Source: Leucoraja erinacea (lineage: Eukaryota). Taken from it: DNA of 64,000 nucleotides. Positions 1-58,239 of this stretch are shown piece by piece (position 1 is the stretch's first letter; the number at the start of each line of letters is the position of its first letter). The translations under genes were made by a program, and so were the position numbers. The notes beneath the pieces are model-generated. The model was not told the DNA's origin and made no database searches. It worked only from the letters and a program-made list of their open reading frames with translations. The stretch is from the NCBI RefSeq assembly GCF_028641065.1, contig NC_073410.1:558001-622000 (forward strand), in the 5' to 3' direction.

Positions 1-21
1 ACACAGTCATACAGTTAGTTA

Positions 22-100
22 CAAATGCTGCAGTAACTCAGCGGCAACTCAGGGGAGAAGGAATGGGCGACGTTTCAGGTCGAGACCCTTCTACAGACTG
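22..100 (-). mobile_element. Penelope-derived short element with mutated hammerhead motif (69-96)
   Basis: Minus strand reads agtCTGTAGAagggtctcgacctGAAACGTCgcc...; matches the family consensus but has CUGUAGA in the core. Confidence 0.7.
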
Positions 101-136
101 AGTGATAAAACCCCTCTCTCGGCGTGCGGCTGTCAG

Positions 137-256
137 CACCCGGAGGAAACCCACGCGGTCACAGGGAGAACGTGCAAACTCCACACAGACAGCGCCGGAG
201 GTCAGGATCGAACCCGGTTCTCAGGTGGTGAGAGGCTGCTGCCCCACCGCTGAGCC
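137..256 (-). mobile_element. tRNA-derived V-SINE (HE1-like) 5' fragment
   Basis: Minus strand has a B-box-like GGTTCGATCC and gtctgtgtggagtttgcacgttctccctgtgaccgcgtgggtttcctccggg, homologous to the copy at 28659-28936. Confidence 0.75.
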
Positions 257-751
257 TTTCTTTGACTAAACAGGGTTCAGGGATGTGACGACCTGCCGGA
301 TTCTGGGGTGAATCAGTCTCGCCATGGGAGAGTTGTCCGCGCGGAGAGACTCGGTGGGTCGGGAAGGAAAGTACAGACGGTTCAGGTCAGGACTTCAGAC
401 CATGTTCCCTCCACAGATGCCGCCTGACCCACAACATCTGCAGTTCCGATATCTCCGGGTTTAAACTTTCGCAGTAATGTTTGGCGGCCGCTGGATGATC
501 AGGTCTGTGGGCGGTGGCGACTTTAACCAGTTATATCTCCCCCCCCCAGAAATGTTGTCCACCCCGGGTGACTAAACCAACGGATAAAAAGCAAAGCATT
601 CCGTTGGAGTTCGCGGTCTCTCGCTGGGAGTTTCTCGTGTCTGCGCAGGTAAGTGTTGAACTTTCCCACGAAAGTTCCACATCTCGGCCCGTGCAGCGGG
701 TTGTACATCTGTGGCGGCGCCGCCAGGTAATGTCGCCGACTGGTGCCGGTA

Positions 752-808
752 GGGGATAGGGTGGGGGCTCGGGGATAGGGTGGGGGCTCGGGGATAGGGT
801 GGGGGCTC
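752..808 (+). repeat. 3 x 19-bp G-rich tandem repeat (GGGGATAGGGTGGGGGCTC)
   Basis: Exact copies at 752, 771 and 790. Confidence 0.95.
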
Positions 809-1095
809 TCAAGCGGGTTGTCTCCCCTTAGGCAGCTGCCCCCCCCCACTGACTTCACACCCGGTCACACCCACCGGGCCGGAGAGCAGAACGAGCTTCC
901 GAGCGGAAACACAACACGCGCCGTCTCCCCCCCCCCCCCCCCCCAACTTATCTCTCCCCCACAACTTATCTCTCCCCCTCCCCCCCCCCCCCCCCCCCCT
1001 CTCTCTCCCCCCCCCCCACCAACCCCCTCTCCCCCCCCCCCACCCCCAACCCCGCTCCCAGGAGCCGGTCGCCGCCGCCCGCAGACAACACTTAC

Positions 1096-1453
1096 TCGGC
1101 GAGGGCGAGTAGGCAACGTCCGAGGCCCAGGCCCGCTCTTCCTTGTCGGTGGGACTGTCCGCTCGGCGCGGTGCCGGGTCATCGGCTCCGGGCTCCGAGT
1201 GCCGTTTGTTCGGGTGTTCAGTCCGGGAGCAGGGTTGTTCCGTGGTGAGGGTGGGCTGCGCGGGGGGGTCAGCTGTCCGGCTGGGCTTGCGATCAGAGAT
1301 CAACGACTCGACGCTGAACGGGAGGCTGGCTGCCCGCAACCCCTTGCTGTCCGCCGGCCCGTTCCCTGGCGCTTCCCAGCCCGTCTCCCTTTCCTTGGTG
1401 TCCCGGGGCAGGGAGCCCGGCAGAGTATTCATCATCCGAGAACAAGGGGCCAT
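1096..1453 (-). CDS. msx3: Msx homeobox gene, coding exon 1 (119 codons + 1 nt; Msx3/msxC-like); exon 2 with the homeodomain is outside the window
   Basis: ATG at 1453 opens MAPCSRMMNTL...AASLPFSVESLISDRK...ERAWASDVAYSPSP. It contains the Msx eh1-type motif LPFSVE(S/A)L and the W-x5-YSP end typical of Msx exon 1, followed by a perfect donor A|GTAAGT at 1096/1095 in phase 1, the conserved Msx intron position. 'FSVESLISDR' and N-terminal 'MAP..MMN.L' resemble teleost msxC/Msx3 rather than Msx1/2 (FSVEALM). Msx family is confident; the paralog call is from memory. Confidence 0.85.
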
Positions 1454-1559
1454 GCACCCGGGAACCGCGCCGCGCCGCCGCCACTTAGTCCGTACCCCGG
1501 GACATGGCTCATCCAAAACGCCACCGTCGCCGCCCAACTTTCCCAACTCGCAGCCCAGC

Positions 1560-1660
1560 CGCTAGCTTTAAACCTCTCGCCCCCTTCCTGTCACCACGAC
1601 CGCTCCAATCAGCTGGCCCGCTCGGCTTGTGACGACCAAGGCACCGCCCCGATCGCCAGG
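1560..1660 (-). promoter_or_regulatory. Putative Msx core promoter: TATA-like TTTAAA (1567-1572), CCAAT (1605-1609) abutting E-box CAGCTG (1610-1615), GC box (1644-1649)
   Basis: Motifs read directly, 115-200 bp upstream of the ATG inside a CpG island. A TSS near 1540 is inferred from TATA spacing only. Confidence 0.55.
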
Positions 1661-1883
1661 CCGAGTCTAACCAGGAACAATGATGATGTTGAAAGGGCCG
1701 GCAGTTCATCAAAGTCCCGGTTACAGATAGCCCCGGGCTGCAGACCCGCACTAACGCTATTCAACTGTACGGGAACCTCTAGCGGGCCAGACTGTCCTGC
1801 CCGGTACAGGCACTCGCTCTGGGAGTTTAAAACCCCATCTGTATCAGAACGCGTGCATTCGCTGCATTCTGTCACTGGATGTG

Positions 1884-2385
1884 NNNNNNNNNNNNNNNNN
1901 NNNNNNNNNNNNNNNNNNNNNNNNNNNNNNNNNNNNNNNNNNNNNNNNNNNNNNNNNNNNNNNNNNNNNNNNNNNNNNNNNNNNNNNNNNNNNNNNNNNN
2001 NNNNNNNNNNNNNNNNNNNNNNNNNNNNNNNNNNNNNNNNNNNNNNNNNNNNNNNNNNNNNNNNNNNNNNNNNNNNNNAGATACANNNNNNNNNNNNNNN
2101 NNNNNNNNNNNNNNNNNNNNNNNNNNNNNNNNNNNNNNNNNNNNNNNNNNNNNNNNNNNNNNNNNNNNNNNNNNNNNNNNNNNNNNNNNNNNNNNNNNNN
2201 NNNNNNNNNNNNNNNNNNNNNNNNNNNNNNNNNNNNNNNNNNNNNNNNNNNNNNNNNNNNNNNNNNNNNNNNNNNNNNNNNNNNNNNNNNNNNNNNNNNN
2301 NNNNNNNNNNNNNNNNNNNNNNNNNNNNNNNNNNNNNNNNNNNNNNNNNNNNNNNNNNNNNNNNNNNNNNNNNNNNNNNNNNNNA
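1884..2385. other. Assembly gap (N run, with a 7-nt island at 2079-2085)
   Basis: N bases. Confidence 1.
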
Positions 2386-3241
2386 AAGCTACACCAATCC
2401 TTCATGATAAGTGGAGGTATTTATTAGGCAGACGAGTGATGTTACGGAAGGCGCCGGCGCGGTTGGATCAATCAGTCGAGCGATGTCAGGGAGACGAGGC
2501 AACAGTTAACTCAACTGCACCAATTGTCCTAAAAACTTCCCCGTCTCCTGGTCTTTCTCTGATCACTCTCACCCTGTGGCTGCGAGACATTCTCTCCACA
2601 ACAAGTATAATTTTAAAGGCTTCCAGCAGCGCACACATCATCATTTATAAATCACCCACATTCGGCACGGAAGTAGCATTTGCAGTTTATCCAGCACGGT
2701 ATCCCCGCGACCCCGGCGATTAAAGATCCGAGGAGGTGCCTTTTTGATCTGGAGAACGTCTTAAAATGTCTACTGCACTCGGCTCCCCTTTATTGTTCAA
2801 CCCAGAATAAAACCCGTGTGGAAACGAGCAGCGGCCCAGAGTGTCGGTTTCTCAATCAGAAGAAAACTCGGCGATAAGGTATACATTCCTCGCGTAATTC
2901 ACACCGTCAACGTCTCGCTTGCCCGGTCCCGGTGAGGACTCGCGGCAAATCCCCGGCTTCTGTTGCCCGAGGAAGGCGCCGGTACTTCACGGGCACCCTC
3001 ACTGTGCACCGTGGCGGTTCCTCGGCCCAGAATATTGGGAAGCTTCACCCTCCCCCTCCATCTCTCCCTCCCAACCCTTGCCCGACAGCGCGACGCCTCA
3101 CACGGCCGGGATGCCAGTGTTCAGAGTTCGGGACCGGGCCTCGCAATATCTTCAGTGATTGGCCAGGATTTTAGTCCTCTGTGGCCGCTGCATCAACTAG
3201 AAAACTTATTTAAATTAACTTTCGGGGCAACTTTACTGAGC

Positions 3242-3666
3242 NNNNNNNNNNNNNNNNNNNNNNNNNNNNNNNNNNNNNNNNNNNNNNNNNNNNNNNNNNN
3301 NNNNNNNNNNNNNNNNNNNNNNNNNNNNNNNNNNNNNNNNNNNNNNNNNNNNNNNNNNNNNNNNNNNNNNNNNNNNNNNNNNNNNNNNNNNNNNNNNNNN
3401 NNNNNNNNNNNNNNNNNNNNNNNNNNNNNNNNNNNNNNNNNNNNNNNNNNNNNNNNNNNNNNNNNNNNNNNNNNNNNNNNNNNNNNNNNNNNNNNNNNNN
3501 NNNNNNNNNNNNNNNNNNNNNNNNNNNNNNNNNNNNNNNNNNNNNNNNNNNNNNNNNNNNNNNNNNNNNNNNNNNNNNNNNNNNNNNNNNNNNNNNNNNN
3601 NNNNNNNNNNNNNNNNNNNNNNNNNNNNNNNNNNNNNNNNNNNNNNNNNNNNNNNNNNNNNNNNNN
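3242..3666. other. Assembly gap
   Basis: N bases. Confidence 1.
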
Positions 3667-5993
3667 CTGCCAGCGGGGCCGCCGCTTCTGACCCGCGTGT
3701 CGGCGAATAGGTAGAAACATGTCGATTGTAGGGAACTCTCACCCGCACCGCCATCAGAACAAGTTGAGCTGAATCAGTCCAGGCGCTCCCTGAGAGAACA
3801 CGGGGCAATTGGAGTAAAATTCACTTCCCAAATGAAACGGAGAGCTGACGAATTGTTCTTGAAACATAATCCATAAATGTCAAAAACAAGTTTTTCACTG
3901 CAATAGATGTCGGAATTATAAAACACGGCGACATGTTATCGTTGCAACATTTAGCATCAGATATAGTTACACTGGAATAAAATCAAACCGTGTCTATTCC
4001 GTTTCACTACAGACTGAACGAGCCGCATTGTACAACGGCGGAACCGTGACAAGAATATTTAGACATCTTCTAATCATTTTAGTAAAACTTGCAGCGTGTT
4101 AGTTTGAACGCCATCTCGCTACAAAAGGCCGCTCGGGGATTTGGTTGTGAAGGCCAACATTCACGGGCTCGGTAATTGCGAATGTGTTTTAGGTTCGGCA
4201 TAATTCTACTGGAATGTTTATAAGGAAATAATTTCACAGCGTTGCCTCGCACATGCAACAATAAAGCGACTTTAAACCATTAAATTCCGTTTTTTCCCCT
4301 TGCAGCTTGTGAGTTTTTGGAGACTGTGTGGGGAAGACGATAGTGCAGATTATTTGCCTCGCGTCTAGGCATGTTGAACTGATTCTGATCGGGCGGACTC
4401 GGCTAACCTGACAATCAGAACCTTCAAAGCGAGTTTTATCCGTTTTATTGTAAAAAGCCGAAAGTGGCCGTTTCTGGGTTAGTAAATATTCTTCAAGGGG
4501 AAATAAAACTGTCACTATAAATTAACATGTAACATTAGGATGACGTGAAAACACAATTAAAACCACACTGTGCAATAATTACTCATCTTCCAACCCTCTC
4601 GTTGCCGGCCCGAGGTGACTCGCATTTGCAGTTAGTCCCGCCGCTCAAACCCCCCTCCCTATCTCACCCTGAAATTATTCCTTGGTGAAGTTACTTTTTC
4701 TGATCGAAAGCTGCGAGTTTCTGCGATGCTCGATAGGAAAAAGCGAAGTAAAAGTCTTGGAGGATTATTTATTTCTTGAATTATGTTTATGTCGCCTGTA
4801 TCTGTGAAACGTCCAGTTTCAAATGTTTGTTAAACCTGCATTTAGTTGTAAAATATTACAGACCCCACACAAATAACTCTTGAAGGCCCCATCTCAATAT
4901 CTTAAATACATCGATTTTAATTTCTCCCGCTGGCTGACTTATTTCTCGTGAATGTGTGTGTGATTTTACAACATCTGAACCACACATTTCCCGGGACCTG
5001 TCGGTGTGGGAATAACCGGGGCCGGGTTGTCGGTGGATACAGTGACTTGTGTGGGACTTAGCCCTCACACCAGACACGGTCACACACACAGAGGCAGACG
5101 GGGCTGTGCGGGAACGTTACTGTTTTTTGCAGCAAGCGAAGACAAATTACAGATCAATCAATTGATCGTTAGTTGAGTTAAACTCGATTAGCTGAAGTGC
5201 TGCTTAAATTGCCGGCTGTTTGGGTTATTAATTTACCGGTTCATCAACATTTGATCTTATGTTTTTGGGTTCATTTGGGAACTGATCGAATTAATTGAGT
5301 CATCGGACATTCAGAAATGCCCGCGATTACCGGCGCGCCCCGGCCGACGGACAGCGTGTGGACCGGAGTCGCCGCTGCCGCTCACGGCCGGTGGAGAACG
5401 GCTGTACCGAATACAGCCTTTTGTTGCACCCCGCCCGTGTGTTGTACCGGGCACTGGCCGATGCCCGCAAACAGTGAGAAGGAAGGAATGTGAAACAGTT
5501 TTGAGCTGAAGGCGAGAGATAACAAAACGTCCTCGGGCACCGGGCAACGATTAATTCATCGGAGACGCGCGGTTATTTGTTGCGCGTCTCATCATCTGCA
5601 TCATCTGCAAATCCAAACCCTGCCCTGCACCAGCATAAGGGAAACTAAAGAACAACATCAAAGATGTCTAACTTCACCTCCCAAACCGGACACAACCAAC
5701 ATACATACACCCGCCTCAACACTGCACAATGACAATAATCTGAATCTGAATCTGAATCTGAACGGAGAGACGCGGTTCTTTAAGCTGCTTGCCGTGGTAT
5801 TTAGAAAGAAACGATTTTATGAAACTGATTCCGGAAATCTCTCTCCCAACACCACGAGCTCAGAGAGGGAGTAGAATAAACGGCAATCTCCACGCAGGGG
5901 TCATAGTCCATGAGGCCACCCGGCCCATCGCGGTGGCATCGTGGGCTAGTACCATGTGCCTGCATTTGATCCACCTCCCACTAAACCCTAGGT

Positions 5994-6311
5994 ACATAAA
6001 AATGCTGGAGAAACTCAGCGGGTGCAGCAGCAACTATGGAGCGAAGGAAAAGGGCAACGTTTCGGGCCGAAACCCTTCTTCAGACGGGTTTCCCTCTAAA
6101 CGCTCCCCTGCCCACATATCTATGCAAATATCTTTTAAACACCGTTGTTGTTGACATCGAAGATAGACACAAAAAGTTGGTTTGAAGAAGGGTCTCGACC
6201 CGAAACTTCACCCATTCCTTCTCTCCAGATACGCTGCCAGTCCCGCTGAGTTACTCCAGCAGTTTGTGTCCATCTTCTGTTTAAACCAGCATCGGCAGTT
6301 CCTTCCTACAC
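5994..6311. mobile_element. Two Penelope-derived short elements in opposite orientation (subfamily B on minus ~5994-6085; subfamily A on plus ~6180-6311)
   Basis: aatgctggagaaactcagcgggtgcagcag...aacgtttcgggccgaaacccttcttcag, then tttgaagaagggtctcgacccgaaacttcaccc...cagttccttcctacac. Confidence 0.75.
6056..6083 (-). ncRNA. Minimal type-I hammerhead ribozyme motif (intact core, subfamily B)
   Basis: CUGAAGA-A-GGGU(UUCG)GCCC-GAAA-CGUU. All core nucleotides are present, with a stem II hairpin and a palindromic ACGU stem III. Confidence 0.65.
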
Positions 6312-6907
6312 GTGTACATATCTAAGCGAGACACTGTTTATTGGCCTTGATGTAACTGCGCTTCATTTGTCCATGTTAATCATACACGCTGTTTGTTGGC
6401 GCTGCTCGGCGCGGCGACACGGGAGCAGGCGGCGAGACTCCCTGGGACCATCATTGTACATTAACACATTAATTCAGCCCAGTCTAATTACACTTCTTTC
6501 ACATACTGTTAATTTTAAGTGGAACCAGGCAGAGAGGAATTATATTGTGAACATGTGCAGCGGGACCGGCTTTAAATCCCAACGTGAGAGGAGAGGGGGA
6601 AGGACAGGGGCTGCGTTTATTCCTGGTTCCGGCGCCGCCCGCTTGAGTGAGACACACCCCCCCCCCCCCCCCCCCCCCCCCCTTTCCCCTATCTCTCCCC
6701 CCCCTCTCTCCCCCACCCCCCCCATCTACGCCCCCCCCCCATCCTCCTCCCCCCATCTACCCCCCCCCCCCCTCTCTACACCCCCCCTCTCCCCAACCCT
6801 CTCTCCTATCTCTCCCAACCCCCTCTCCCCTCTCCATCTCCATCTCCCCTCCACTCCCTCACTCGCATTGCCTGCATTTGGCCCACTGCTGTCCAAATCC
6901 TTCCTAT

Positions 6908-7035
6908 CAGTCTGAAAAAAGAATCTTCACCCGAAACGTCACTCATTCCTTCTCTCCAGAGCCGGCCATGCCTGTCCCGCTGAGTTACTCCAGCAATTTG
7001 TGTCAAACTTTGGTATAGAGTAGCATCTGCAGTTA
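6908..7035 (+). mobile_element. Penelope-derived short element with degenerate hammerhead
   Basis: agtctgaaaaaagaatcttcacccgaaacgtcac...gctgagttactccagc...gcatctgcag. Confidence 0.65.
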
Positions 7036-8912
7036 TTTTTCTTTACATATTGTGTAGCTGGGACGTTGGGCGATGTGGGCGTTGGGCCGAAGGTCCTGTT
7101 TCCACGCTGTAGGGCTCTATATATATATACAATATGGTTAATGCGGAATTGTACACGTGTGGAGCATGCAGGCACACATGGGGTTGGTCAAACACACGCC
7201 TTAACCATATGGGATTGGGGTACAAATTCGCATTAAAGCCATCATGGAGACAATCTTCTTCAACATCAGGATGACAACGTTATAGAGAGACTTTGTTTTC
7301 CAGTTTGAATTCAGTTCGCACGTTTTCTCTATGGCAGTTCCTTCGCTTCACCAGCGGAGTGGGATAAGTTGGTCTCCAGACTGCAGCAGAGTCGGGCGCA
7401 GTTGGATATCTGGAACCACTGCCGTTAATTGCACGCTGCCATTAACACCAGCCATTCTTCCTGCTTTAACACCAGGTTTGTTTTTCATGGAGCCTCACTC
7501 AATTGAATGGCATGCAATGCTTTCACTCTAGTATGAAGCTGGCCCAGTCACAATGGGCCGAACGGCCTGTTATCATGTTGTACGTCTCAATCTGCGGAGT
7601 GTGTGACTTCCAATGAAAAACGTGTTGTGAGTGGAGTACAAGTCCCATCCAGATGTGTAACACAGTTTAGTGCAAGAATTAATTAGCATCGATGAATTAT
7701 TCCCTGACCGCGATGACTAAAAGCACATGTCCAGTTCTGGCAACGTAACGGCAACAGTGGTGGGAAACACGAACTAACACGAGGAATACTCAGCGGGCCA
7801 GGCAGCATCCATGGAGAGGAACAGGACCACAATCATTCTGATCAACATGAGCTGTGCTTCTCTCTGCACAGTTGGGGCAGGTGAATCTAAACATATAAAT
7901 GACACTTACACAGGTACACGGATTGGAAAGGTTTAAAGGGATTTGGGCCAAAGATGGACTAATGAGACTGGCTTAGATGGGGCATATTGGTCGATATACG
8001 TAAGAGGGGCCGAACCTCCTGTCCCCCTGCTATCTCTCTCTCTCTCTGCGATGTTGCCAGAACGGTTGCGTTTCTAACGCCAATAGTTTGCTGCACATTT
8101 CTCATTGGTTTCTGGATATATTTGCTGGTGTTATGACGGTGGCCTCCTGTCCTGTCTCTAGTGTTGCAACGATTCTGCATCGATTAACCAACACCTCTTC
8201 AAAATGAGTTTAAAGTCAAGGTATCCCGCAATGGGAGTGAGGTGCAGCACTGACACATGCTGTGGGGATGATGTATTGAGGTGAGACAGACATTCTAACT
8301 ACACGGCTTTCCCTGGTACACGGACATCCATCTGAGCTTGCCTGTGGTTTGTACCATGTTACCTAAAGTACTGATTAAGTTAAATATGGTTTTACTTTCC
8401 GGTAAAGACCTCAGTCATCTTTGATCTTGCTACACAATCCTAAAGTCTGAGAAAGCTGCTTCAACCTGATCAAAGATGTCTCTGATCTGCCTCAGAAGCT
8501 GAGAGTGTGGTGTTAGGTGAAGCTGGGCTGGAGCTGAGACCTGCAGTTAAGTACAGAGTGAACTTGACACAACTAATAGAGGATGAAAGCTGTATGGGTG
8601 CTATGACAAGAATGCATATGTGTGCAATGAAGAAATCGTGGCGACTGGGAACTCGATTCAGCCGATCCTGGCCGACGCTGCCACCAACTCCGAGACTTGT
8701 GGTTGGAAGACTACACTTGTTAACTTCCAAGCCACAAGGTGATGCGTGGCTCCTTTCTTCCTCCTGAAATGATCTCTCGCTACCATTAAACATAACTCTG
8801 CTCAGGGCAACCCGAGAGGCGGTATCGGGTTCACAAAGACAGCATTCGGGTAATTAAATTGCAGAACTCGAGCCTGATTGGAGTGGTGGCATTTCCCCGC
8901 AACATTCACCAT

Positions 8913-9068
8913 TCAAGATTCAAGAGAGTTTATTGTCATGTGTCCCTGATAGGACAATTAAATTCTTGCTTTGCTTCAGCACACAGAACATAGAAGGCAT
9001 GAATACAGAACAGATCAGCGTGTCCATATACCATTGTATAAATATATACACACATGAATAAATAAACT
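8913..9068 (-). mobile_element. LINE 3' UTR fragment (Rex1/Babar-like)
   Basis: Minus strand ends ...acatgacaataaactctcttgaatcttg; resembles the 3' ends attached to Rex1-like coding fragments elsewhere in the window. Confidence 0.45.
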
Positions 9069-9081
9069 AGCGTCACGGAGT

Positions 9082-9830
9082 CATATAGCGTGGGAAGAGA
9101 CCATTCGGCCCAACTTTCCTACGCCGACTAATATGTCCCACCTGCCTGCGTTTGGCTCACATCCCTCTAAATCTGTCCTATCCATGTACCTGTCTAAATG
9201 TTTCTTAAACGTTGTGAAAGTCCATACCTCAACTACCTCCTCTGGCAGCTCGTTCCATATAACTACTAGCTCATGCCCTCGGCGTCCTGGTAACATCCTC
9301 GTACATCCCCTCCGCACCTTTTCCAGTTTACTACAGGCCTCTCCGATGCCTTGTACATTGTAACGTGCTCTGCCAACGTCTACACTCACCACTCTGACTG
9401 ATGAAGTCCAATGTGCCGAAAGCCTTGTTTACCCCCCTGTATATCTGCCTGCATCCATGTCCCTGTACTCTAGCCATTGTGTGTAGGCCATGCCCATGCT
9501 GGACTTCCCAACAGGCAGCACCTCGCCCTTGTTTAAGAAGGAACTGCAGATGCTGGGAAATCGAAGGTAGACAAAAATGCTGGAGAAACTCAGCGGGTGA
9601 GGCAGCATCTATGGAGCGAAGGAAATAGGCAACGGCCTCATACTTCGCTGTATTCAACTCAATTAACCATTTTTCAGCCCAGCTGGCCAACTGATCAATT
9701 GTTGACAATCATCTTCGCTATCTACAATGCCATCTACTTTAGTGTAATCTGTAAACTGGCTATTCATGCCTTGTATGTTCTCATCCAAATCATTAATGTA
9801 GATGACGAACAGTGATCCACCATGAATATA
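9082..9830 (-). mobile_element. CR1-clade LINE fragments (degenerate RT C-terminus and 3' tail), interrupted by a Penelope-derived unit at ~9530-9634
   Basis: Minus-strand ORFs contain VIWNELPEEVVE...FKKHLDRYMD, KLEKVRRGCTRMLPG and IDQLASWAEKWLIELNTAKYE, typical CR1 ORF2 motifs. Confidence 0.8.
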
Positions 9831-10324
9831 AAAGGCTCAGGAGACGAGACCAGCCGTGCTCGAAGTTCGATTGCCTGAATGGCCTCCTACTGCTGTGTGT
9901 GTAAGGCCGCAGATAGAGAGTCTCATTCGAGCCAGGAGAGGGACATAGAGAGCACAGTGTGGGTAGAGGACGGACCCGTCCCAGCTAATGTACCGCATTA
10001 ACCCAGCACTGGTTAGTTGGAGGCCCAGTCCCGCCACAGATGTTCCCAGTAACTCGGCCCCTTTATTGATTGTACGTTGCCAGTGTAGGCCAGGCACCCT
10101 TGCACTCACTTCACTAAACCCATTCCCCACTGAACACTGCCCGGTCCATCACAGCATCTACCGGGGTCGCCACATCAACAAATCCTGGCCTCATTCTCAT
10201 TTCATAGGTACAGGAGTCTGAAAACAGTAACCTCGTCCTGGTCCCGGTTCAGGAACAGCCTCTTCCCAACAATCATCCACTATTGAACACCACGACCTCC
10301 AAATAAACTCTGATTCATATTCCT

Positions 10325-10475
10325 ATATATCCAGCATCTGCAGTTCTTTCCTCCAAATCATATATATAGTGTGTGCGGAACTGCAGCAGCTGCTTTGCAC
10401 CGAAGATAGACACAAAATGCTGAAGTAATTCCACGCGACAGGCAGCATCTCTGGAGAAAAGGAATAGCGGTGATG
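10325..10475. mobile_element. Penelope-derived short element fragments in both orientations
   Basis: ccagcatctgcagttc and ggaactgcag...gatagacacaaaatgctgaagtaat...ggcagcatctctggagaaaaggaatag. Confidence 0.6.
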
Positions 10476-10784
10476 TCTGTGGTGTTCAGCCAGGCCAATG
10501 ATGTTCCGCTGGGCGGGTGGGGTGACCGTGTTGCGCGGATGACCAGGGTGGTAATGCCGCGGGCCGGCGCTCAGGCACCGCATGGATAGCACAGTGCGTG
10601 TGTTAGTCCCACAGTCCCATCCCATCACTCACACATCCCCGCGACACTAGGAGAGAGGAGTGTCGCCGTTTACTTGGTTAGAAATTCAGCAACAGCGGTT
10701 AATTTTAACCAGAGAGAAGTTTTACCGTTTTTTAAAGTTGAGCTTTGACGCGAGGAATCTTTGACAGATTCCTCGCGTTTAGAA

Positions 10785-11196
10785 GATTTAGAAGATGGAG
10801 CGGGGATCTTATAGAAACGTACAAAATTCTTAAGGCGTTGGACAGGCTAGATGCAGGAAGATTGCTCCCGATGTTGGGGAAGTCCAGAACAAGGGGTCAC
10901 AGCTTAAGGATAAGGGGGAAATCTTTTAGGACCGAGATGAGAAAAACATTTTTCACACAGGGAGTGGTGAATCTGTGGAATTCTCTGCCACAGAAGGTAG
11001 TTGAGGCCACAGTTAATTGGCTATATTTAAGAGGGAGTTAGATGTGGCCCTTGTGGCTAAAGGGATCAGGGGGTATGGAGAGAAGGCAGGTACAGGATAC
11101 TGAGTTGGATGATCAGCCATGATCATATTGAATGGCGAATGGTGCAGGCTCGAAGGGCCGAATGGCCTACTCCTGCACCTATTTTCTATGTTTCTA
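10785..11196 (+). mobile_element. CR1-clade LINE (HER1-like) 3' end, young copy
   Basis: GDLIETYKILKALDRLDAGRLLPMLGKSRTRGHSLRIRGKSFRTEMRKTFFTQGVVNLWNSLPQKVVEA plus the tail gaagggccgaatggcctactcctgcacctattttctatgtttcta. Near-identical to 48236-48413. Confidence 0.9.
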
Positions 11197-11218
11197 AAAG
11201 AAAGACGATTGTTTTTAT

Positions 11219-11349
11219 GTTTAAGAAGGAACTGCAGATGCTGGGAAATCGAAGGTAGACAAAAATGCTGGAGAAACTCAGCGGGTGCAGCAGCATCTAT
11301 GGAGCGAAGGAAATAGGCAACGTTTCGGGCCGAAACCCTTCTTCAGACT
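11219..11349 (-). mobile_element. 131-bp hammerhead-bearing Penelope-derived element flanked by a perfect 15-bp target-site duplication
   Basis: TSD GACGATTGTTTTTAT at 11204-11218 and 11350-11364. The minus-strand element begins agtCTGAAGAagggtttcggcccGAAACGTT and ends cagttccttcttaaac. Confidence 0.85.
11319..11346 (-). ncRNA. Minimal type-I hammerhead ribozyme motif (intact core, subfamily B)
   Basis: CUGAAGA-A-GGGU(UUCG)GCCC-GAAA-CGUU. Confidence 0.65.
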
Positions 11350-11769
11350 GACGATTGTTTTTATATTTAGTAAACGGTCAGGTTGCAAGCAGAGTCCTGG
11401 CTGTTACAGACAGTCTGTACTGTCCGAGTCCACGCTCGCTTCATCACCCTGAATCAAAGAGGTGAACATGGCTATGTTATAATTAGACTGAAGTCTAATA
11501 CGGAGTCTGAAAGAAGGTTATAAAATGCTTTCCCCTTTACCACTGTGACAGGCGCTTCTGTAATTGTGGGACAGAAAGGTCAGAACAAATAGGTGGGCTT
11601 GGTTGTGGCCGTGTTACGGCGCGGACCCTTCTCATCCGCGCCCACAATGGGATCCTGAATAAACAAGTATTAAATCTTCTCTTCACAATGAACTGCCCGG
11701 CTGTGAAAAGGAGTTGGGTTTGGGGAGTAGGTTGTGTGAGCGGCAGAGAGAGAGAGAGAGAGACAGTAA

Positions 11770-12100
11770 ATGAGCGGAGTTTGAACGTCTTTTGTTGGGG
11801 GCTTGTTTAATGGGGCGGAAAATGCAATTGCACTTTCCTCGCTGCGAAAGGCGCGTTGAGGGCATCATAAATTAGCTGCCGTGAGATACTGTCTTTGTGT
11901 AGCCGGCGCGGGCCGAGTCCAGCCGCGTCTAAACTGCAGGCGCCCGGAGATAATCACGGGCCGTTTCACTGACTGGGGACAAGCCCCCGGTGATGGCGTC
12001 CCGGCACCGTCCACAAGGGGCAAGTAGCCAGCCAGCCGGCCGAGCGGCCTCCGCTTCTCTGCCTCGTCTCTCTGCAGTTTGGCACATGGCTCCTGTCACA
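11770..12100. promoter_or_regulatory. Candidate BMP/Wnt-responsive enhancer (CpG-rich, non-repetitive)
   Basis: GCCGGCGC 11902-11909, GTCT 11927-11930, GGCGCC 11939-11944, CTTTGT 11893-11898, CATAAATTAG ~11866-11875. Confidence 0.4.
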
Positions 12101-12369
12101 GTGGCTCCACATTCAGCCCAATCCCTCGTTCCCACTCGGTGTCGAGGCTCACAGCTGCTCGGCGGCTCCAGACTCCCGCGGCAGGTGAACCCGCGCCGCA
12201 GCCACTCGCACTCAAAGCCTTTCACACACTCACTCGGAATGTGACTTTGTTCAGAATGTGACAATGGGCGTCCGCACTCAATATGCAGATTCGCCGCATT
12301 CCGCCTTCGCCTCGCCACAGGAACCCGCACGGGCCCGGCCTCAGCGGTCAAAGGTGTGGAGCCAAGCCG

Positions 12370-13985
12370 GAGCTGCCCCCCTCACCCTGCCCCTCACCTC
12401 ACCCCTCACCTCACCCTGCCCCACTCACCCCCCCACCCCTCACCCCCCCCTCGCCCCTCACCCTGCCCCCACTCCCCCCTCACCCCTCCCCCCCCTGCCC
12501 CCCCTCACCCCACTCAACCCCCCCCCCCCCGCCCCCACACCTGCCCCTGCCCCCTCACCCCACACCCCTCCCCCTGCCCCCACACCCCTCACCCTGCCCC
12601 CACTCTGCCCCCTCACCCCTCACCCTGCCCCCTCACCCCTCACCCTGCCCCACCCTGCCCCCCACTGCCCCCTCACCCCTCCCCTGCCCCCTCACCCCCC
12701 CTCACCCCCTCACCCTGCCCCCTCTGCCCCCCCTGCCCCCACACCCTGCCCCCTCGCCCCCTCACCCTGCCCCCCCCCTCACCCCCCCCTCCCCCCCCCC
12801 CCCACCTCACCCCCCCCCCCCCCCCCCCACCCCCCCCCCCCCCCACCCCCTCCCCCTACCCCTCACCCTCCCCCTCCCCCTCACCCTCCCCCTCACCCCC
12901 CCCCTGCCCCTCACCCCCCCCCCCCCCCCCTCACCCTCACCCTCACCCTAGCCCTCCCCCTCACCCTCACCCTCACCCTCACCCTAACCCTAACCCTAAC
13001 CCTAACCCTAACCCTAACCCTCCCCCTCCCCCTCACCCTCCCCCTCACCCCTGCCCCCCCCCTAAACACCCTGCCCCCCTCACCCCTCACCCTGGCCCCC
13101 TCACCCCTCACCCCTCCCCCCCCACCCCCACCCCTGCACCCCTCACCCTGCCCCCTCACACCCCACCCCCTGCCCCCTCACCCCCCCCCACCCTGCCCCC
13201 ACCTCACCCTCACCCTGCCCCCCCTCACCCTGCCCCCTCACCCTCACCTCAACACCCTCACCCTGCCCCCCCTCACCCCTCCACCCCCTCACCCTCACCC
13301 CCCCACCCTGCCCCCTGCCCCCTCACCCTCCCCCCCCTGCCCCCTCCCCTCCCCTCCCCTGCCCCCTCACCCTCACACCTGCCCCCTCACCCTGCCCCCT
13401 CACACCCTCACCCTGCCCCCCTCACCCTGCCCTCTCACCCCTCACCCTGCCCCCTCCCCACCCCCCTCACCATGCCCCTCTCACCCCTCACCCTGCCCCC
13501 CACACCCTGCCCTCTCACCCCCCTCACCCTGGGCCCCCTCACCCTGGCCCCTCACCCTCACCCCTCACCCCAACCCCCCCCCCCCCTCACCCTGCCCCCT
13601 CCCCCTGCCCCCCCACCCCACACCCCTCACCCTGCCCCCCCCCCCTCCAAACCCCTCACCCCCTGCCCCCCCCACCCTGCCCCCTCCCCCTCCCCACACA
13701 CCCCTCACCCTGCCCCTCCCCCTCACCCTGTACCCTCCCCCCACACCCTCCCCCTCACCCCACCCCCTGCCCCTCACCCTGCCCTCTCACCCCTCACCCT
13801 GCCCCCTCACCCTGCCCCCTCACCCCTCCCCCTGCCCCCTCACCCTGCCCCCTCACCCCACACCCCCTGCCCCCTCACCCCTGCCCCCTCACCCTGCCCT
13901 CTCACCCCTCACCCTGCCCCCTCACCCTGCCCCCTCACCCCTCCCCCTGCCCCCTCACCCCTCACCCCTCACCCTGCCCACTCCC
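12370..13985 (+). repeat. 1.6-kb C-rich satellite of CCCTCA/CCCTGC-type units with embedded (CCCTAA)6 at 12982-13017
   Basis: Read directly; the G-rich strand is the minus strand. Confidence 0.95.
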
Positions 13986-14029
13986 CCTTTACGTTTACAA
14001 ACCTTCCTGCTTCTAGAGGGATCTTACCA

Positions 14030-14480
14030 CAAATGGACGGATATGTGAACAGAATGGGTTTAGATGGATATGGGCCAAACGCGGGCAAATAAGACTAGCC
14101 CAGTATGCCAACTAGGTGGGCATGGACAAAGTGGGCCGAAGGGCCTGTTTCCATGCTGAAGGGCTCAGTAACTCTGTATCCTGGAATATGACATAACATT
14201 CTTCAGCTCTGGGACAAATTGGGAAGTGATCGTGAAATGTGGTTATTATCTGGAGCTGGATGATGTGGGACTTGCTGCGGTTAATTGGGACCAAATGTTG
14301 GACGTGTGGGGAATGTGTGGGTTGGTCACAGGCACATGGGGATTACAGTCAGGAAACAATGATGCAGCTTTATAGGACTTGTGGACGCCCCGGTGCAGGG
14401 AGGACGTGGAGGATTTGGAGAGGGCGATGTTTACCAGAATAATGCGCGAATTAGGGGGTATTAGCTACAGGGAGGTTGCT
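14030..14480 (+). mobile_element. CR1 fragments (3' tail at ~14030-14160 and degenerate RT segment at ~14345-14480)
   Basis: ggatatgggccaaacgcgggcaaat...gggccgaagggcctgtttcc; peptide EDVEDLERAMFTRIMRELGGISYRE. Confidence 0.65.
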
Positions 14481-14499
14481 GGGAGATCAGATAGAAGCC

Positions 14500-14725
14500 T
14501 CCCCTTACTCTCTCTCCCCCTCACTCCCTCTACTCCCTCACCCTCTACTCCCTCACTCTCTCTACCCCCTGATCCTCTACTCCCTCACTCTCTCACTCCC
14601 TCACCCTCTACTCCCTCACTCCCTCTACCCCTCACCCTCTCTACCCCTCACTCTCTCTACCCCTCGCCCTCTCTACCCCTCACCATCTACCCCTCGCCCT
14701 CTCTACCCCTCACCATCTACCTCTC
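14500..14725 (+). repeat. CT-rich minisatellite (ccctctact/ccctcac units)
   Basis: Read directly. Confidence 0.85.
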
Positions 14726-15644
14726 TCCGCTCTCTTGGCTGAAGACCATGTTCCTGTGCTGTTTATGTCCCAATGTTTAACCGTCAGTGTGAACACTCTA
14801 GAAACACAACTCCCCCGAACCGCAGTGTGAGTGCAGTCGGCAGATGGTGCTGGCTTTGTCCACATGTGGACGCTGGTCCCCTGGAGAGGACGGACTTTAC
14901 ACCTGGCAACAGTCCTCTATCTACCTACCCCTGCCGTATACTATCCACCAGCCCCTTCCTTCCAACAACAGCCCTGGAAACTCTGATCCACTTCCCAATT
15001 CCAGAATGGTGCCTCCTGCCAAACCGGGAATCATGTAGTTGAAATAACTGCAGATGATGGTTTAAATCGGTCTACCTGCAGTAATATCTGGCAGGGTTTG
15101 GTGCTGGGGGGGGGGGGGGGGGGGGGGAGATAATATCACTTCATTTGTTTCCCCTTTGGATATTTCCCCGGCTATTTTCTCTCATCTTTACTTCTTTATG
15201 TTCAAGGTCAAAGATCAACCACAACAAATCACTGACACCTGGAATCTGGTAAAATAGAACTCCAGGAATTGAGACAGCAACCTAATGCAGCAAGATTGCA
15301 AAAAGGGTTTTGGTTTTTCCATAAACCCGTACCCTGTGAATATCAGGAATTCTGCTGAGTGGGCGCTTTATTAAAATTATAGGTGTGCAATAACAGTTAA
15401 GGATTTGCCAGGCGACCGGCTCCAGGCTGTGATTAGTCCGATAATTGGACCCAGGGAAGTATTCTGGAAGACAAGCCTCATCGCCAAGGCACGGAAACTG
15501 ACAGATCAGGTTCTGGTCAATGGGGTTAGCATAAATGGCTACTTGATGGTCGGCATGAACACGTTGGGCCGAAGGGCCTGATTCTGTGCCGTGGAGTCCC
15601 TTGTGGAGAGGAGAGTGCAGGGAAGCCAACAGAATGAATCATTG

Positions 15645-17089: not shown

Positions 17090-17797
17090 CAACTGTAGAC
17101 CGGTTTAAAACGAAGGAAGACACAGAATGCTGGAGGAACTCAGCGGGCCAGGCAGCATCTGTGGAGAGAAGGAATGGGTGATGTTTCAGGTCGAGACCCT
17201 TCTTCAGACTGATGTCAATGGAGGGGGCGGGACAGAGATAGAATGTAGTCGGAGACAGTAAGAACTGTGATGGGATGCTGCCTGACCCGCTGAGTTACTC
17301 CAGCACTCTGTGAAACGTCACCTATCCATGTTCTCCACAGATGCTGCCTGACCCGCTGAGTTACTCCAGCACTCTGTGACACGTCACCTAACCATGTTCT
17401 CCACAGATGCTGCCTGTCCCACTGAGTTATTCCAGCACTCTGTGAAACGTCACCTATCCATGTTAGAGTTTGATAGAGCTCTAGGGGTTAGTGGAATCAA
17501 GGGATATGGGGAGAAGGTAGGCACGGATTATTGATTGGGAACGATCAGCCATGATCACAATGAATGGCGGTGCTAGCTCGAAGGGCCGAATGGCCTCCTC
17601 CTGCACCTATTTTCTATGTTTCCACATATGCTGCCTGATCCGCTGAGTTACTCCAGCACTCTGTGAAACGTCACCTATCCATGTTCTCCACAGATGCTGC
17701 CTGACCCGCTGAGTTACTCCAGCACTCTGTGAAACGTCACCTATCCATGTTCTCCACAGATGCTGCCCGACCCGCTGAGTTACTCCAGCACTGTGTC
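17090..17797. mobile_element. Composite: Penelope-derived unit (minus, ~17090-17260), 66-bp tandem arrays (17274-17462, 17627-17797) and a nested CR1 3' end (17463-17620, plus)
   Basis: Repeated unit gatgctgcctgacccgctgagttactccagcactctgtgaaacgtcacctatccatgttctccaca; CR1 tail gaagggccgaatggcctcctcctgcacctattttctatgtt. Confidence 0.85.
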
Positions 17798-34439: not shown

Positions 34440-34692
34440 GGGAGCTGCAGATGCTGGTTTACAAGAAAAGCACAAAGTGCTGGAGTAACTCAGCGGGTCA
34501 GGCAGCATCTGTGGAGAACATGGATAGGTGACGTTTCACAGAGTGCTGGAGTAGCTCAGTGGGTCAGGCAGCATCTGTGGAGAACATGGATAGGTGACGT
34601 TTCACAAAGTGCTGGAGTAACTCAGTGGGTCAAGCAGCATCTGTGGAGAACATGGATAGGTGACGTTTTAGGTTGGGGCCCTTCTTCAGACC
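34440..34692 (-). mobile_element. Penelope-derived element with degenerate hammerhead and 3 x 66-bp tandem units
   Basis: gtgctggagtaactcagcgggtcaggcagcatctgtggagaacatggataggtgacgtttcaca repeated, ending cccttcttcagacc. Confidence 0.85.
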
Positions 34693-37483: not shown

Positions 37484-37794
37484 AGTCTGTGAAGTTCAGA
37501 TTGAAGAAGGGTCCCGACCCAAAACATCACCTATCCATGTTCTCCACAGATGCTGCCTGACCCGCTGAGTTACTCCAGCACTCTGTGAAACGTCACCTAT
37601 CCATGTTCTCCGCAGAGGCTGCCTGACCCGCTGAGTTACTCCAGCACTCTGTGAAACGTCACCTATCCATGTTCTCCACAGATGCTGCCTGACCCGCTGA
37701 GTTACTCCAGCACTCTGTGAAACGTCACCTATCCATGTTCTCCACAGATGCTGCCTGACCAGCTGAGTTACTCCAGCACTCTGTGTCTTTCTTT
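37484..37794 (+). mobile_element. Penelope-derived element: degenerate hammerhead + ~4 x 66-bp units, flanked by a 13-bp TSD
   Basis: ATGCTTTGTACTT at 37471-37483 and 37795-37807; units start at 37549, 37615, 37681 and 37747. Confidence 0.85.
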
Positions 37795-43919: not shown

Positions 43920-44510
43920 GGAGCTGAAGAAAGGTCTCAACCCGAAACGTCACTTCTCCATGTTCTCCACAGATGCTGCCTGACCCGCTGAGTTATGGTG
44001 CAGCAGCATCTATGGAGCTAAGGAAATAGGCAACGTTTCGGGCCGAAACCCTTCTGGAAATAGGCAACGTTTCGGGCCGAAACCCGGAAGGGTTTCGGCC
44101 CGAAACGTTGCCTATTTCCTTAGCTCCATAGATGCTGCCTGACCCTCTGAGTTACTCCAGCACTCTGTGAAACGTCACCTATCCATGTTCTCCACAGATG
44201 CTGCCTGACCCGCTGAGTTACTCCAGCACTCTGTGAAACGTCACCTATCCATGTTCTCCACAGATGCTGCCTGACCCACTGAGTTACTCCAGCACTCTGT
44301 GAAACGTCACCTATCCATGTTCTCCACAGATGCTGCCTGACCCGCTGAGTTACTCCAGCATCTTGTGGACAATGTGGCTTGTTATGTTGGCCCATCAGTC
44401 TCTCTGAGATAGACAGAAGTGCTGGAGAAACTCAGCGGGTGCAGCAGCATCTATGGAGCGAAGGAAGGAAATTGGCAACGTTTCGGGCCGAAACCCTTCT
44501 TCAGACTAGG
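43920..44510. mobile_element. Composite of subfamily A and B hammerhead elements: palindromic B core (~44000-44138), 66-bp array (44131-44360), intact minus-strand hammerhead (44477-44504)
   Basis: gcagcatctatggagctaaggaaataggcaacgtttcgggccgaaaccc...gggtttcggcccgaaacgttgcctatttccttagctccatagatgctgc; the same architecture recurs at 58245-58590. Confidence 0.85.
44477..44504 (-). ncRNA. Minimal type-I hammerhead ribozyme motif (intact core, subfamily B)
   Basis: CUGAAGA-A-GGGU(UUCG)GCCC-GAAA-CGUU. Confidence 0.65.
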
Positions 44511-45399: not shown

Positions 45400-45750
45400 T
45401 GTGTAGGGGAAGGAACTCGGAGATACTGGTTTAAACCGAAGATAGAGACAAAAAGCTGGAGTAACTCAGCGGGTCAGGCAGCATCTCTGGAGGGAAGAAA
45501 TAGGTGATTTTCCGGGTCGAGACCCTTCTTGGATCTGAATTGTCACCTATCCATGTTCTCCACAGATGCTGCCTGACCCGCGGACTCCAGCACTCTGTGA
45601 AACGTCACCTATCCATGTTCTCCACAGATGCTGCCTGACCCGCGGAGTTACTCCAGCACTCTGTGAAACGTCACCTATCCATGTTCTCCACAGATGCTGC
45701 CTGACCCGCTGAGTTACTCCACATATGCTGCTGGACCCGCTGAGTTACTC
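45400..45750. mobile_element. Penelope-derived unit (minus) followed by an inverted 66-bp tandem array
   Basis: gtgtaggggaaggaact...gggtcgagacccttctt, then gtcacctatccatgttctccacagatgctgcctgaccc x3. Confidence 0.8.
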
Positions 45751-55240: not shown

Positions 55241-56614
55241 CTTAATTCCCAGTTGTCTGAGTTCCCTTTAATGAATGTGCTTTGTCTCCATCAACATTAC
55301 CAGGAGCTCAGCGGCAGGCATCAGTGCAAGCCAACCACTGGTAGAATGCCGCATCTACTGCAGAACAAGTGGGGACATTTGATTTCTACCACAAATCCTG
55401 TTTACTGAAAATATCCAACGTATTTGCTGTGACTTGCATCATCTGGCCAGCTGTGAAATATCATTACAGGCTGTTTTAGATCCATAAATGGATACCATTC
55501 AGAATTTATGCCAGCAGCAGTATGAGATCAGAACAAACAAATGTCACAAGATTTCAAAGCCTGAATGGACACCTTTCATGTTCCACCTCACCATCATGCT
55601 CAGAACACGCGTGTGTGTGTGTGTTCACAGACATCAATTATAGACACTTTAATCCACAAACATAAATAGCAACAGGAAATTGACAGTAAATACCCAGGAG
55701 GTCTGCGGCATCTGTGGAGTAAATAGATTTAGTAATGGTGACCTTTCATCTACAAATTGTATTCCTCGCTCATGCAGGTAGTTTGCTAGGTTGTGCCTTC
55801 TTCTCCTCCACCTGGACAGGTAGGTTGCCAGGGTTCGATGCCACTCTAATGCTGGAGCCTGGTGGACAATGAATGTTTCACCTGGTCATGGACCCACAGA
55901 AACTGATGTATGAATAATGAGCAAGATTATAGCTGGCCCTGTGAGATATGGAGGATACCACACAAGTCCCAGGAATTAGTCAGAAGAGTTGTATAAAGGG
56001 CAGTCATTTGTTCCGCCCAATCCCTGACTCATATCCACACTGGTGTTTGCCACATGACCGGTTAAACAATCCTCTCCACTTGTAGGAACATTGGGACAGA
56101 GAGATTTACACAATGGTTCAGAGGACAACGGGCCAATTGTCAGCAAATGGGACTAGCCCAGAATGCCAACTTGTTTGGCATAGACATGATGGGCCAAAGG
56201 GCCTGTTTCCATGCTGTACAGCTCTATGAGTCTCTCACTCTAACTTCCAACGTCAGGAGAAAGGGCTTTACCAAGATGAAGCTCACAGTGAGGAGAGATC
56301 ACAGCAGATTGTCGATGTGTCTGAGGAATTGGTGCAAAAATTGGAAAGGAGAGTGAGAGAGAGAGAGGTTTAGGCTGATGGGGATTGATGGAGATGGGGC
56401 TGCAATCCCACATCAACCAGTGGACTGACTGGTCCATTTGATGGGATATCAGGGCCTGATCTGAGTTGTGGGCCACATCATTTCCATCTTTCTCATTATT
56501 CACGTTTTAACATTTTCTTGATGTGTTGCCTTACTTCAGATCAGACACTCTCCCATCCATTCCCCTTTCGACTTTTGGCACCAGATGAAGTAAGTCTCCC
56601 CAAGTAACATCCAC

Positions 56615-56828
56615 AGCACATCATTTCCATCACCTCCAACAAATCACATCTTCCCACCTCCATCCTTCCCACATTCTGCAGAGACAACTCTTTAGATCAC
56701 TCATGCCTTCCTGTCCAAATCAACCACTCCTTAGATACTTTCCCCTGCAACTGCAGGAGATGCAACACCTGTCCATATACCTCCTCCCTCACCTCCATCC
56801 AAGGACCCCAGCAGTCCTTCCAGGTGAG
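56615..56828 (+). mobile_element. Penelope-like element coding remnant (Cys knuckle upstream of the GIY-YIG endonuclease)
   Basis: 56737-56826 translates TFPCNCRRCNTCPYTSSLTSIQGPQQSFQV, preceded by degraded HF.HLQ/HIFP/F.RD.SL motifs. This resembles the C-x(3-4)-RC-x-TC linker of Neptune-type PLEs. Confidence 0.7.
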
Positions 56829-56834
56829 CCACAG

Positions 56835-58215: not shown

Positions 58216-58239
58216 GACCTCCTATCTACATCATTGAAG

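What the first reader, a model, noticed from the sequence alone, without database searches (positions are those of the whole stretch)
11204..11364. A 131-bp hammerhead-ribozyme-carrying mobile unit with a perfect 15-bp TSD: a SINE-like or retrozyme-like family in a cartilaginous fish
Seen: a non-coding 131-bp unit flanked by the direct repeat GACGATTGTTTTTAT. Its minus-strand 5' end starts three bases before CUGAAGA-A-GGGU(UUCG)GCCC-GAAACGUU. It has no Pol III A/B boxes and no poly-A tail. Established: minimal type-I hammerheads with a palindromic, loop-less stem III mark the pseudo-LTRs of Penelope-like elements (PLEs) and non-LTR retrozymes, and they cleave best as dimers. Inference: the ribozyme-bearing terminal unit is being mobilised on its own (TSD, roughly 25-30 copies or fragments in 64 kb), i.e. 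a very abundant non-autonomous ribozyme retroelement. I cannot tell whether this family is already catalogued.
Basis: partly seen in the sequence, partly recalled or inferred. Interest (0 to 1): 0.85.

Follow-up and report, generated by a model that had tools for sequence, protein, structure and literature searches.

The report
Penelope retrotransposon's ribozyme end, inserted alone
The 131-base unit is the ribozyme-motif end piece of a known kind of protein-coding jumping gene (a Neptune-type Penelope-like element) in a cartilaginous fish, and its many short copies likely arise when the element's own copying enzyme runs off the start of the element's RNA, not from a separate SINE-like or circular-RNA family.

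Summary
Observation confirmed: 131-bp unit, exact 15-bp direct repeat, minimal hammerhead motif. The unit is the terminal repeat (pLTR end) of an autonomous Neptune-type Penelope-like element (PLE): 26 of 30 RT-selected loci end in it, and two partial-tandem copies carry it at both ends of an RT/GIY-YIG ORF. Copies share two 3' ends about 34 nt apart, the known PLE 'tail'. The 5' boundary is real: stops run at 9.9% per nt at -3..+3 against 0.6-0.75% at +20..+45, with no excess at the predicted ribozyme cut. Short and ORF/UTR-linked copies share all six common haplotypes (p=0.21), so no separate SINE or retrozyme lineage was found. Best reading: run-off cDNAs from the element's internal priming site to its transcript 5' end (inferred). 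About one million related fragments are extrapolated. Cleavage is untested. The scan reported the same kind of element on other shark-type DNA. Less ordinary: an ORF-less 66-bp tandem derivative with 18,974 exact junctions.

The parts
11219..11349 (-). Short insertion of the PLE pLTR end, +1 to +131 (+1 = 11349)
11350..11364 (.). Direct repeat at the element's 5' junction; 11350-11351 also match element positions -1/-2 (microhomology)
11204..11218 (.). Direct repeat at the element's 3' (priming) junction; 11218 also matches the next element base
11346..11351 (-). Initiator-like TCAGTC at the preferred 5' boundary; inferred transcription start (Inr consensus recalled)
   Evidence: internal Inr/DPE promoter of D. 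virilis Penelope in PMC2377424
11340..11346 (-). Hammerhead core CUGAAGA (C3-A9), followed by one bulged A at 11339
11327..11338 (-). Stem II, 4 bp with UUCG loop; fourth pair is U-A in 226 and U-G in 197 of 470 copies
11319..11326 (-). GAAA, palindromic CG stem III without loop, and GUU triplet; predicted cut between 11319 and 11318
   Evidence: cleavage untested
11317..11318 (-). 3' strand of a 2-bp stem I (pairs with 11347-11348)
11251..11256 (-). First preferred 3' end of the family (+94 to +99), inferred internal priming site of reverse transcription
11219..11252 (-). Optional tail of about 34 nt ending at the second preferred 3' end (+130 to +135)
   Evidence: PMC11167929, PMC8557442
37496..37788 (+). 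Related old-subfamily unit with a 66-bp tandem array (+24 to +89 repeated); similar arrays at 17274-17796, 34471-34668, 44124-44360, 45542-45721, 58398-58502
43924..44364 (+). Composite of 66-bp units and inverted young hammerhead ends; a second copy at 58233-58502

Best explanation
The unit is the hammerhead-motif terminal repeat of a protein-coding Neptune-type Penelope-like retrotransposon, and this copy is likely a run-off cDNA made by that element's own reverse transcriptase and endonuclease. Shown: the unit sits at both ends of a 3.85-kb RT plus GIY-YIG element; copies end at two fixed 3' sites (+94-99 and +130-135); more than half of the core-bearing young copies stop within a few bases of +1; many carry 8-19 bp duplications. 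Inferred steps: RNA polymerase II starts at an Inr-like TCAGT just ahead of the ribozyme; the endonuclease nicks the target; reverse transcription is primed inside the RNA at +97 or +131. If it starts in the 5' repeat it reaches the RNA's 5' end after about 100 or 130 nt and leaves this short unit. If it starts in the 3' repeat it runs on into the UTR and ORF and leaves ordinary 5'-truncated copies. Hammerhead cleavage would not be needed for either product.
For: Unit lies downstream of RT in 26 of 30 RT-selected loci. L202 and L203 are UTR-unit-ORF-UTR-unit partial tandems, period 3,846 bp in L202. [quoted passage not shown] 3' ends: 80 of 138 at +90..107 and 52 of 138 at +130..135, matching two internal RT starts and the 30-40 bp tail (PMC11167929). 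5' stops: 39 in 395 nt at risk at -3..+3, against 8 in 1,220 at +20..30, 2 in 346 at +31..33 and 11 in 1,471 at +34..45. Genome-wide exact counts fall 18,893 (+2), 15,024 (+1), 9,715 (-3), 7,029 (-6), against about 4% loss per base from mutation. Copies that run on into the ORF's 5' part often begin at the same point (e.g. L123, L125, L126, L127). All 6 haplotypes with 5 or more copies occur in both short and UTR-linked copies; 33 short vs 41 UTR-linked, permutation p=0.21. Hammerhead mutants of the anole PLE still insert in vitro.
Against: No direct transcription start was seen: four RNA-seq runs showed no place where many molecules begin, and 86-97% of laid reads run on into unlike sequence, i.e. 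passive read-through. A pause site would give the same genomic boundary. The 5' ends spread over -3..+4 and the largest single drop is at +2, not +1. In D. virilis the start lies 46 bp before a 75-bp intron, upstream of the hammerhead, not next to it. The haplotype test uses a 95-nt sequence and 74 copies and could miss small independent lineages. The ORF-less 66-bp derivative shows that pieces of this repeat can spread without the ORF. The one ORF translated in full is from a degraded copy (glycine of the second GIY-YIG motif is changed in P0001).
Confidence: 0.68

Rival explanations
1. Same element, but the 5' boundary is a reverse-transcriptase pause or RNA-processing site on a long read-through RNA (the TCAG-T-CTGA palindrome, the C-rich tract just upstream, or the splice-acceptor-like pyrimidine tract plus CAG at +2/+3), not the transcription start.
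For: A pyrimidine tract and CAG directly precede helix I, as the intron end does in D. virilis (PMC4209133). Head-to-head copies centre on the palindrome. No start seen in RNA-seq.
Against: No spliced genomic copy: 0 of 99 ORF-end-to-core distances are under 80 nt. The donor(+166)-to-acceptor junction has 1 exact match against 697 unspliced, and that match has non-element sequence upstream. Duplications often abut the boundary, leaving no room for an upstream exon. Copies that pass the boundary rarely stop in the C-rich tract: 13 of 15 extend more than 100 bp.
Confidence: 0.18
2. One reading: the short unit is a self-perpetuating non-autonomous family (SINE-like), transcribed from solo copies through the internal promoter and mobilised in trans by the PLE protein.
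For: Promoter-like motif and priming sites both lie inside the unit. 18 of 30 position-ordered core-bearing copies stop at the boundary. pLTRs alone sufficed for trans-mobilisation in a rotifer (PMC3846280). ORF-less derivatives reach 18,974 and 1,532 exact junctions here.
Against: No short-only haplotype among the 6 common ones, p=0.21. The anole PLE needs RNA well beyond the priming site (first 172 nt of ORF; priming at 111-118), which a solo copy lacks. No Pol III boxes.
Confidence: 0.1
3. Retrozyme cycle: dimeric hammerhead cleavage and circularisation produce the template.
For: All 11 core positions are invariant across 6 subfamily consensuses, against 25 of 81 other positions variable (Fisher p=0.03). 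The stem III palindrome can pair between copies (-5.7 kcal/mol). Non-LTR retrozymes derive from PLE pLTRs (bioRxiv 10.64898/2026.07.22.740005).
Against: No excess of 5' ends at the cut (2 in 346 nt at risk). This copy is a monomer that begins before the core. The active fold (-4.5) is less stable than an alternative (-6.7) and stem II probability was 0.0 in a 260-nt fold of L204. The 66-bp tandem units lack CUGANGA and stem II. Core conservation overlaps the putative promoter and is inflated by profile-based selection of copies.
Confidence: 0.04

Closest known systems
Endonuclease-positive Penelope-like elements, Neptune clade (PMC8557442; PMC3846280)
   Same: RT plus C-terminal GIY-YIG, CX2-5CxxC linker, partial tandems forming pLTRs, optional 30-40 bp tail, inverted 5' copies, target-site duplications, hammerhead in the pLTR.
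   Different: A sharp 5' stop at the hammerhead start producing a majority of unit-only copies is not described in the passages I read; very high copy number; long low-complexity N-terminal region between the pLTR and RT.
Poseidon element of Anolis carolinensis, PAc (PMC11167929)
   Same: Two internal priming sites roughly 100-130 nt downstream of the hammerhead that define the tail; hammerhead cut not seen in RNA ends.
   Different: Other clade; in PAc the ORF starts inside the hammerhead, here the first in-frame ATG lies at about +168, past the tail.
Minimal hammerheads of metazoan PLEs (PMC4209133)
   Same: Full core, bulged base before G10.1, G10.1-C11.1 pair, palindromic loop-less helix III; mostly single motifs scattered through the genome.
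   Different: Helix I has 2 contiguous pairs (4-5 usual; 2 in D. virilis) and helix II 4 (7-8 in S. mansoni). One 28-base variant alone has 18,893 exact copies, against about 4,000 and 9,000 motifs reported for coelacanth and Xenopus.
Non-LTR retrozymes (bioRxiv 10.64898/2026.07.22.740005)
   Same: Non-coding, pLTR-derived, type I hammerhead; found in one chondrichthyan genome (mean 363 bp); solo monomers occur.
   Different: Defined by tandem units that each hold a complete hammerhead; this unit is a monomer identical to the end of an ORF-bearing element, and the local tandem units hold only half of the motif.

Membership tests
EN+ PLE, Neptune clade | RT followed by C-terminal GIY-YIG endonuclease in one ORF | tested here: met
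   591-aa open frame in L047 with RT match and C-terminal YCIRC...YIGET region in sister copies; homologues carry PF00078 and, in part, PF01541
EN+ PLE, Neptune clade | CX2-5CxxC linker between RT and EN | tested here: met
   CNRKKCNTC in L047 and L202; feature from PMC8557442
EN+ PLE, Neptune clade | Partial tandem forming pLTRs | tested here: met
   L202, L203
EN+ PLE, Neptune clade | Optional 30-40 bp tail | tested here: met
   3' ends at +90..107 (80 of 138) and +130..135 (52 of 138)
EN+ PLE, Neptune clade | Inverted 5'-truncated partner copies | tested here: met
   31 of 138 young copies; 4 of 30
EN+ PLE, Neptune clade | RT tree placement with reference Neptune elements | not tested
   No named reference set at hand; Nematis shares the linker, so the clade call rests on the linker and the vertebrate host
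Minimal type I hammerhead | Core C3-A9, G12-A15.1, U16.1, bulge before G10.1-C11.1 | tested here: met
   Present in the unit; invariant in 6 of 6 subfamily consensuses
Minimal type I hammerhead | Palindromic 15.2/16.2 allowing a dimer | tested here: met
   CG inside AACGUU; duplex -5.7 kcal/mol
Minimal type I hammerhead | Helix I of 4-5 bp | tested here: not met
   2 contiguous pairs, third position A-C in 352 of 470 copies; the D. virilis variant also has 2
Minimal type I hammerhead | Match to an Rfam hammerhead model | tested here: not met
   0 of 13 matches at E<=1
Minimal type I hammerhead | Self-cleavage | not testable with these tools
   Needs in vitro assay
Non-LTR retrozyme | At least two tandem units each with a complete hammerhead | tested here: not met
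   Monomer at this locus; 66-bp arrays lack CUGANGA and stem II
Non-LTR retrozyme | Copy boundaries at the cleavage site | tested here: not met
   2 stops in 346 nt at risk at +31..33
Non-LTR retrozyme | Circular RNA intermediate | tested here: inconclusive
   No end-to-start joint among the 15 listed joints (73 not shown) in poly-A and single-cell libraries, which are unsuited
SINE | Internal Pol III promoter | tested here: not met
   No B box; no A box within the unit
SINE | Lineage independent of the autonomous partner | tested here: not met
   Haplotypes shared, p=0.21; limited power

The most novel reading that the evidence does not exclude
The 130-nt repeat is a self-contained promoter-ribozyme-priming module that PLE proteins copy from ORF-less templates as well. 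It has seeded about a million fragments (4% of the genome) and at least one young parasite of its own: a 66-bp tandem unit holding half a hammerhead, which spreads into resident older copies by homology and could be cut in trans or in cis by the intact hammerhead upstream.
Probability: 0.15. Interest if true: 0.65.

Novelty: new member of a known kind. Interest (0 to 1): 0.3.

Why it matters
As a family it is ordinary: a Neptune-type PLE with its known hammerhead and tail. Its use is mechanistic. Tens of thousands of young copies with two fixed 3' ends and one fixed 5' end give a natural read-out of where PLE reverse transcription starts and stops, and argue that the hammerhead cut does not define the template. 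This makes two open points testable: where PLE transcripts start, and what the minimal hammerhead is for. It also implies that cartilaginous-fish genomes hold far more hammerhead motifs than the vertebrate counts in PMC4209133.

Tried and rejected
Rfam: no hammerhead match; the mir-722 hits at 44.0k and 58.3k are inverted copies of this unit. Folding of the whole unit: z=-0.41, not unusual. Splice or back-splice origin: 1 vs 697 matches and 0 of 99 spliced copies. Cleavage-defined boundary: no excess. Within-subfamily conservation of the core (0.043 vs 0.083 at non-CpG sites) was not used as evidence, because copies were selected by a profile match at the 5' end and clusters are mixed. A cap-derived extra G was looked for: the base before the element start was G in only 5 of 23 copies with extra bases. 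Run search: no RNA holder listed among indexed runs. Empty-site test with contigs of four runs: no joint skipping the unit among the 15 listed (779 not shown); two contigs reach 24 bases into the unit from the unique flank, short of the 31 needed to count. A window-wide count of 15-mer repeats was swamped by tandem arrays and dropped. Not-in-print check: searches listed no paper on this family in sharks or skates; Repbase and Dfam could not be searched and the preprint's supplementary tables were not seen, so the family may already be catalogued.

Full report
Observation. The window holds a 131-bp insert between two exact 15-bp repeats at 11204-11218 and 11350-11364. On the minus strand it reads AGU, then a minimal type I hammerhead motif. 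Positions below are numbered from the A at 11349 (+1). Two bases of the 5' repeat and one of the 3' repeat also match the element, so the edges are uncertain by 1-3 bases. Rfam has no hammerhead match. The window holds 72 profile hits to the family.

What the unit belongs to. Of the 30 best genomic matches, 9 continue upstream into a shared C-rich UTR (8 by BLAST pairs, L011 by eye), and the longer ones reach the end of a GIY-YIG-type ORF. Walking upstream gave a 591-aa frame with an RT match and a CX4CxxC linker. In 26 of 30 loci chosen by the RT region alone, the unit follows in the same orientation. L202 and L203 are partial tandems, UTR-unit-ORF-UTR-unit, with a period of 3,846 bp in L202. 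This is the layout of endonuclease-positive PLEs; the linker points to the Neptune clade (PMC8557442, passages). The closest named protein relatives are from sharks and rays at 63-71% identity.

Abundance. In 134 stretches of 10 kb taken at round-number positions on large contigs there were 630 profile hits covering 4.3% of the bases. Extrapolated to 2.19 Gb this is about one million fragments of several subfamilies; the profile was seeded from the same sample. One 28-base version of the young core has 18,893 exact matches. Of 211 sampled copies spanning the motif, 34 keep an intact core and stem II.

3' ends. Among 138 young copies not chosen by a search (at least 92% identity, 3' end at +85 or later), 80 end at +90..107 and 52 at +130..135. 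The same two ends occur in ORF-linked copies (16 and 10 of 26). This matches the two internal priming sites that define the tail in the anole element (PMC11167929, parts 1-2 of 4 read; its held supplements gave no hits).

5' ends. Stops per nucleotide at risk were 9.9% at -3..+3, 1.7% at +4..9, 1.6% at +10..19, 0.66% at +20..30, 0.58% at +31..33 (the predicted cut) and 0.75% at +34..45. These copies include flanks of search-selected loci, which favour UTR-linked copies (42 of 138). In the first 30 exact core matches along contig 1, 12 continue into a pyrimidine-rich UTR and 18 stop at the boundary: 13 with a repeat of 7 bp or more, 4 with an inverted partner, 1 with neither. Genome-wide counts fall from 18,893 at +2 to 15,024 at +1, 9,715 at -3 and 7,029 at -6, much faster than the 4% per base expected from divergence; part of the last step may reflect UTR variants. 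Several copies that run on into the ORF's 5' part begin at the same place. RNA reads from related organisms show loose ends at +1/+2, +95 and +132, which repeat the genomic boundaries, but no discrete RNA start or end.

Is it an independent family? In the young cluster all 6 four-site haplotypes with 5 or more copies occur in both short and UTR-linked copies, and a permutation test on 33 short and 41 UTR-linked unselected copies gave p=0.21. The finding's own variant occurs in UTR-linked copies. No Pol III boxes were found. So no separate SINE-like lineage is shown, with limited power.

The ribozyme. The 11 core positions do not vary among 6 subfamily consensuses while 25 of 81 other positions do (p=0.03), and two stem positions switch between U-A and U-G. 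This fits selection on the motif in active elements, but the same bases overlap an Inr-like and a DPE-like motif (consensus recalled; D. virilis Penelope has such a promoter, PMC2377424, passages). Stem I has two pairs, the active fold is not the most stable, and the youngest subfamily mostly has GUU where older ones have GUC. Minimal hammerheads cleave weakly even as dimers (PMC4209133, parts 1-2 of 4 read), and the anole one needs protein and is dispensable for insertion in vitro. Activity here is untested.

Mechanism. Shown: identity with the pLTR end, two 3' ends, one 5' boundary away from the cut, duplications of 8-19 bp, shared haplotypes. Inferred: internal priming by the PLE protein, and run-off at a transcript 5' end at about +1 (0.68). 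Rivals are a pause or processing site on read-through RNA (0.18), self-perpetuating solo units (0.10) and a retrozyme cycle (0.04). Splicing models found no support.

Derivatives. A 66-bp unit (+24..+89 of an old subfamily) forms arrays at six or more places in the window. Its junction has 18,974 exact matches; 25 internal units differ by 3% from their majority, while the old subfamilies differ by 18-25% from their consensus. The arrays often follow a more diverged first unit, which suggests spread into resident copies (inference). A composite of these units with inverted young hammerhead ends has 1,532 exact junctions, the first 100 listed lying mostly within a few Mb of contig ends. These are the best candidates for true non-autonomous elements here, but they are not the unit of the finding.

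Comparison and verdict. It works like, and meets the tested features of, a Neptune-type PLE terminal repeat. It fails the tandem and boundary tests for non-LTR retrozymes (bioRxiv 10.64898/2026.07.22.740005, parts 1-3 of 5 read, supplements not seen) and the promoter and lineage tests for SINEs. Solo pLTRs, palindromic inverted junctions and trans-mobilisation are described in PMC3846280 (passages); PMC6155905 was seen as passages. Six searches listed no paper on this family in cartilaginous fish; repeat databases were not available. Earlier notes of this scan reached the same reading on other shark-type DNA; my reading was written before that call. Verdict: real, a new member of a known kind, interest 0.3.

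Noticed in passing
window 17274-17796, 34471-34668, 37522-37785, 44124-44360, 45542-45721, 58398-58502: Young 66-bp tandem units derived from +24..+89 of an old subfamily; they hold only the GAAACGUC half of the hammerhead; 18,974 exact junctions genome-wide, unevenly spread (24 on contig 1, dense and nearly all on one strand at contig 2, 23.9-26.2 Mb).
   Followed up: partly
window 43924-44364 and 58233-58502; L029, L274, L278: Recurrent composite of 66-bp units and inverted young hammerhead ends with different flanks; 1,532 exact junctions, listed ones clustered near contig ends.
   Followed up: partly
L111-L140: Third preferred boundary: 16 of 30 copies that reach +263 stop by +274, most followed by a UTR-plus-unit piece; may mark a template jump or a short transcript end. 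The query itself ended there, so earlier stops were excluded.
   Followed up: partly
L201, L202, L204 unit and ORF start: The unit is an open frame after the core TGA (…DAAAPAEFLQHF…) in frame with the ORF's first ATG at about +168; a non-ATG start is possible.
   Followed up: no
L198, L205, L249 and others: Head-to-head pairs centred on the TCAG(A/T)CTGA palindrome at the 5' boundary, as expected from snap-back priming.
   Followed up: partly
window 56608-56835: Fragment of a more distant PLE ORF, 44% identical to the linker and endonuclease region.
   Followed up: no
window 10800-11200: The insertion sits at the end of another very high-copy repeat (depth); CR1-like by recall, not tested.
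   Followed up: no
window 12378-13979: 1.6-kb degenerate CCCTCA/CCCCTCA array, telomere-like in period, 0.57 Mb from the start of the contig.
   Followed up: no
proteins P0012, P0081: Ray gene models named as kinase-domain or chitinase-domain proteins contain 64-67% identical PLE ORF sequence; likely annotation fusions with the element.
   Followed up: no
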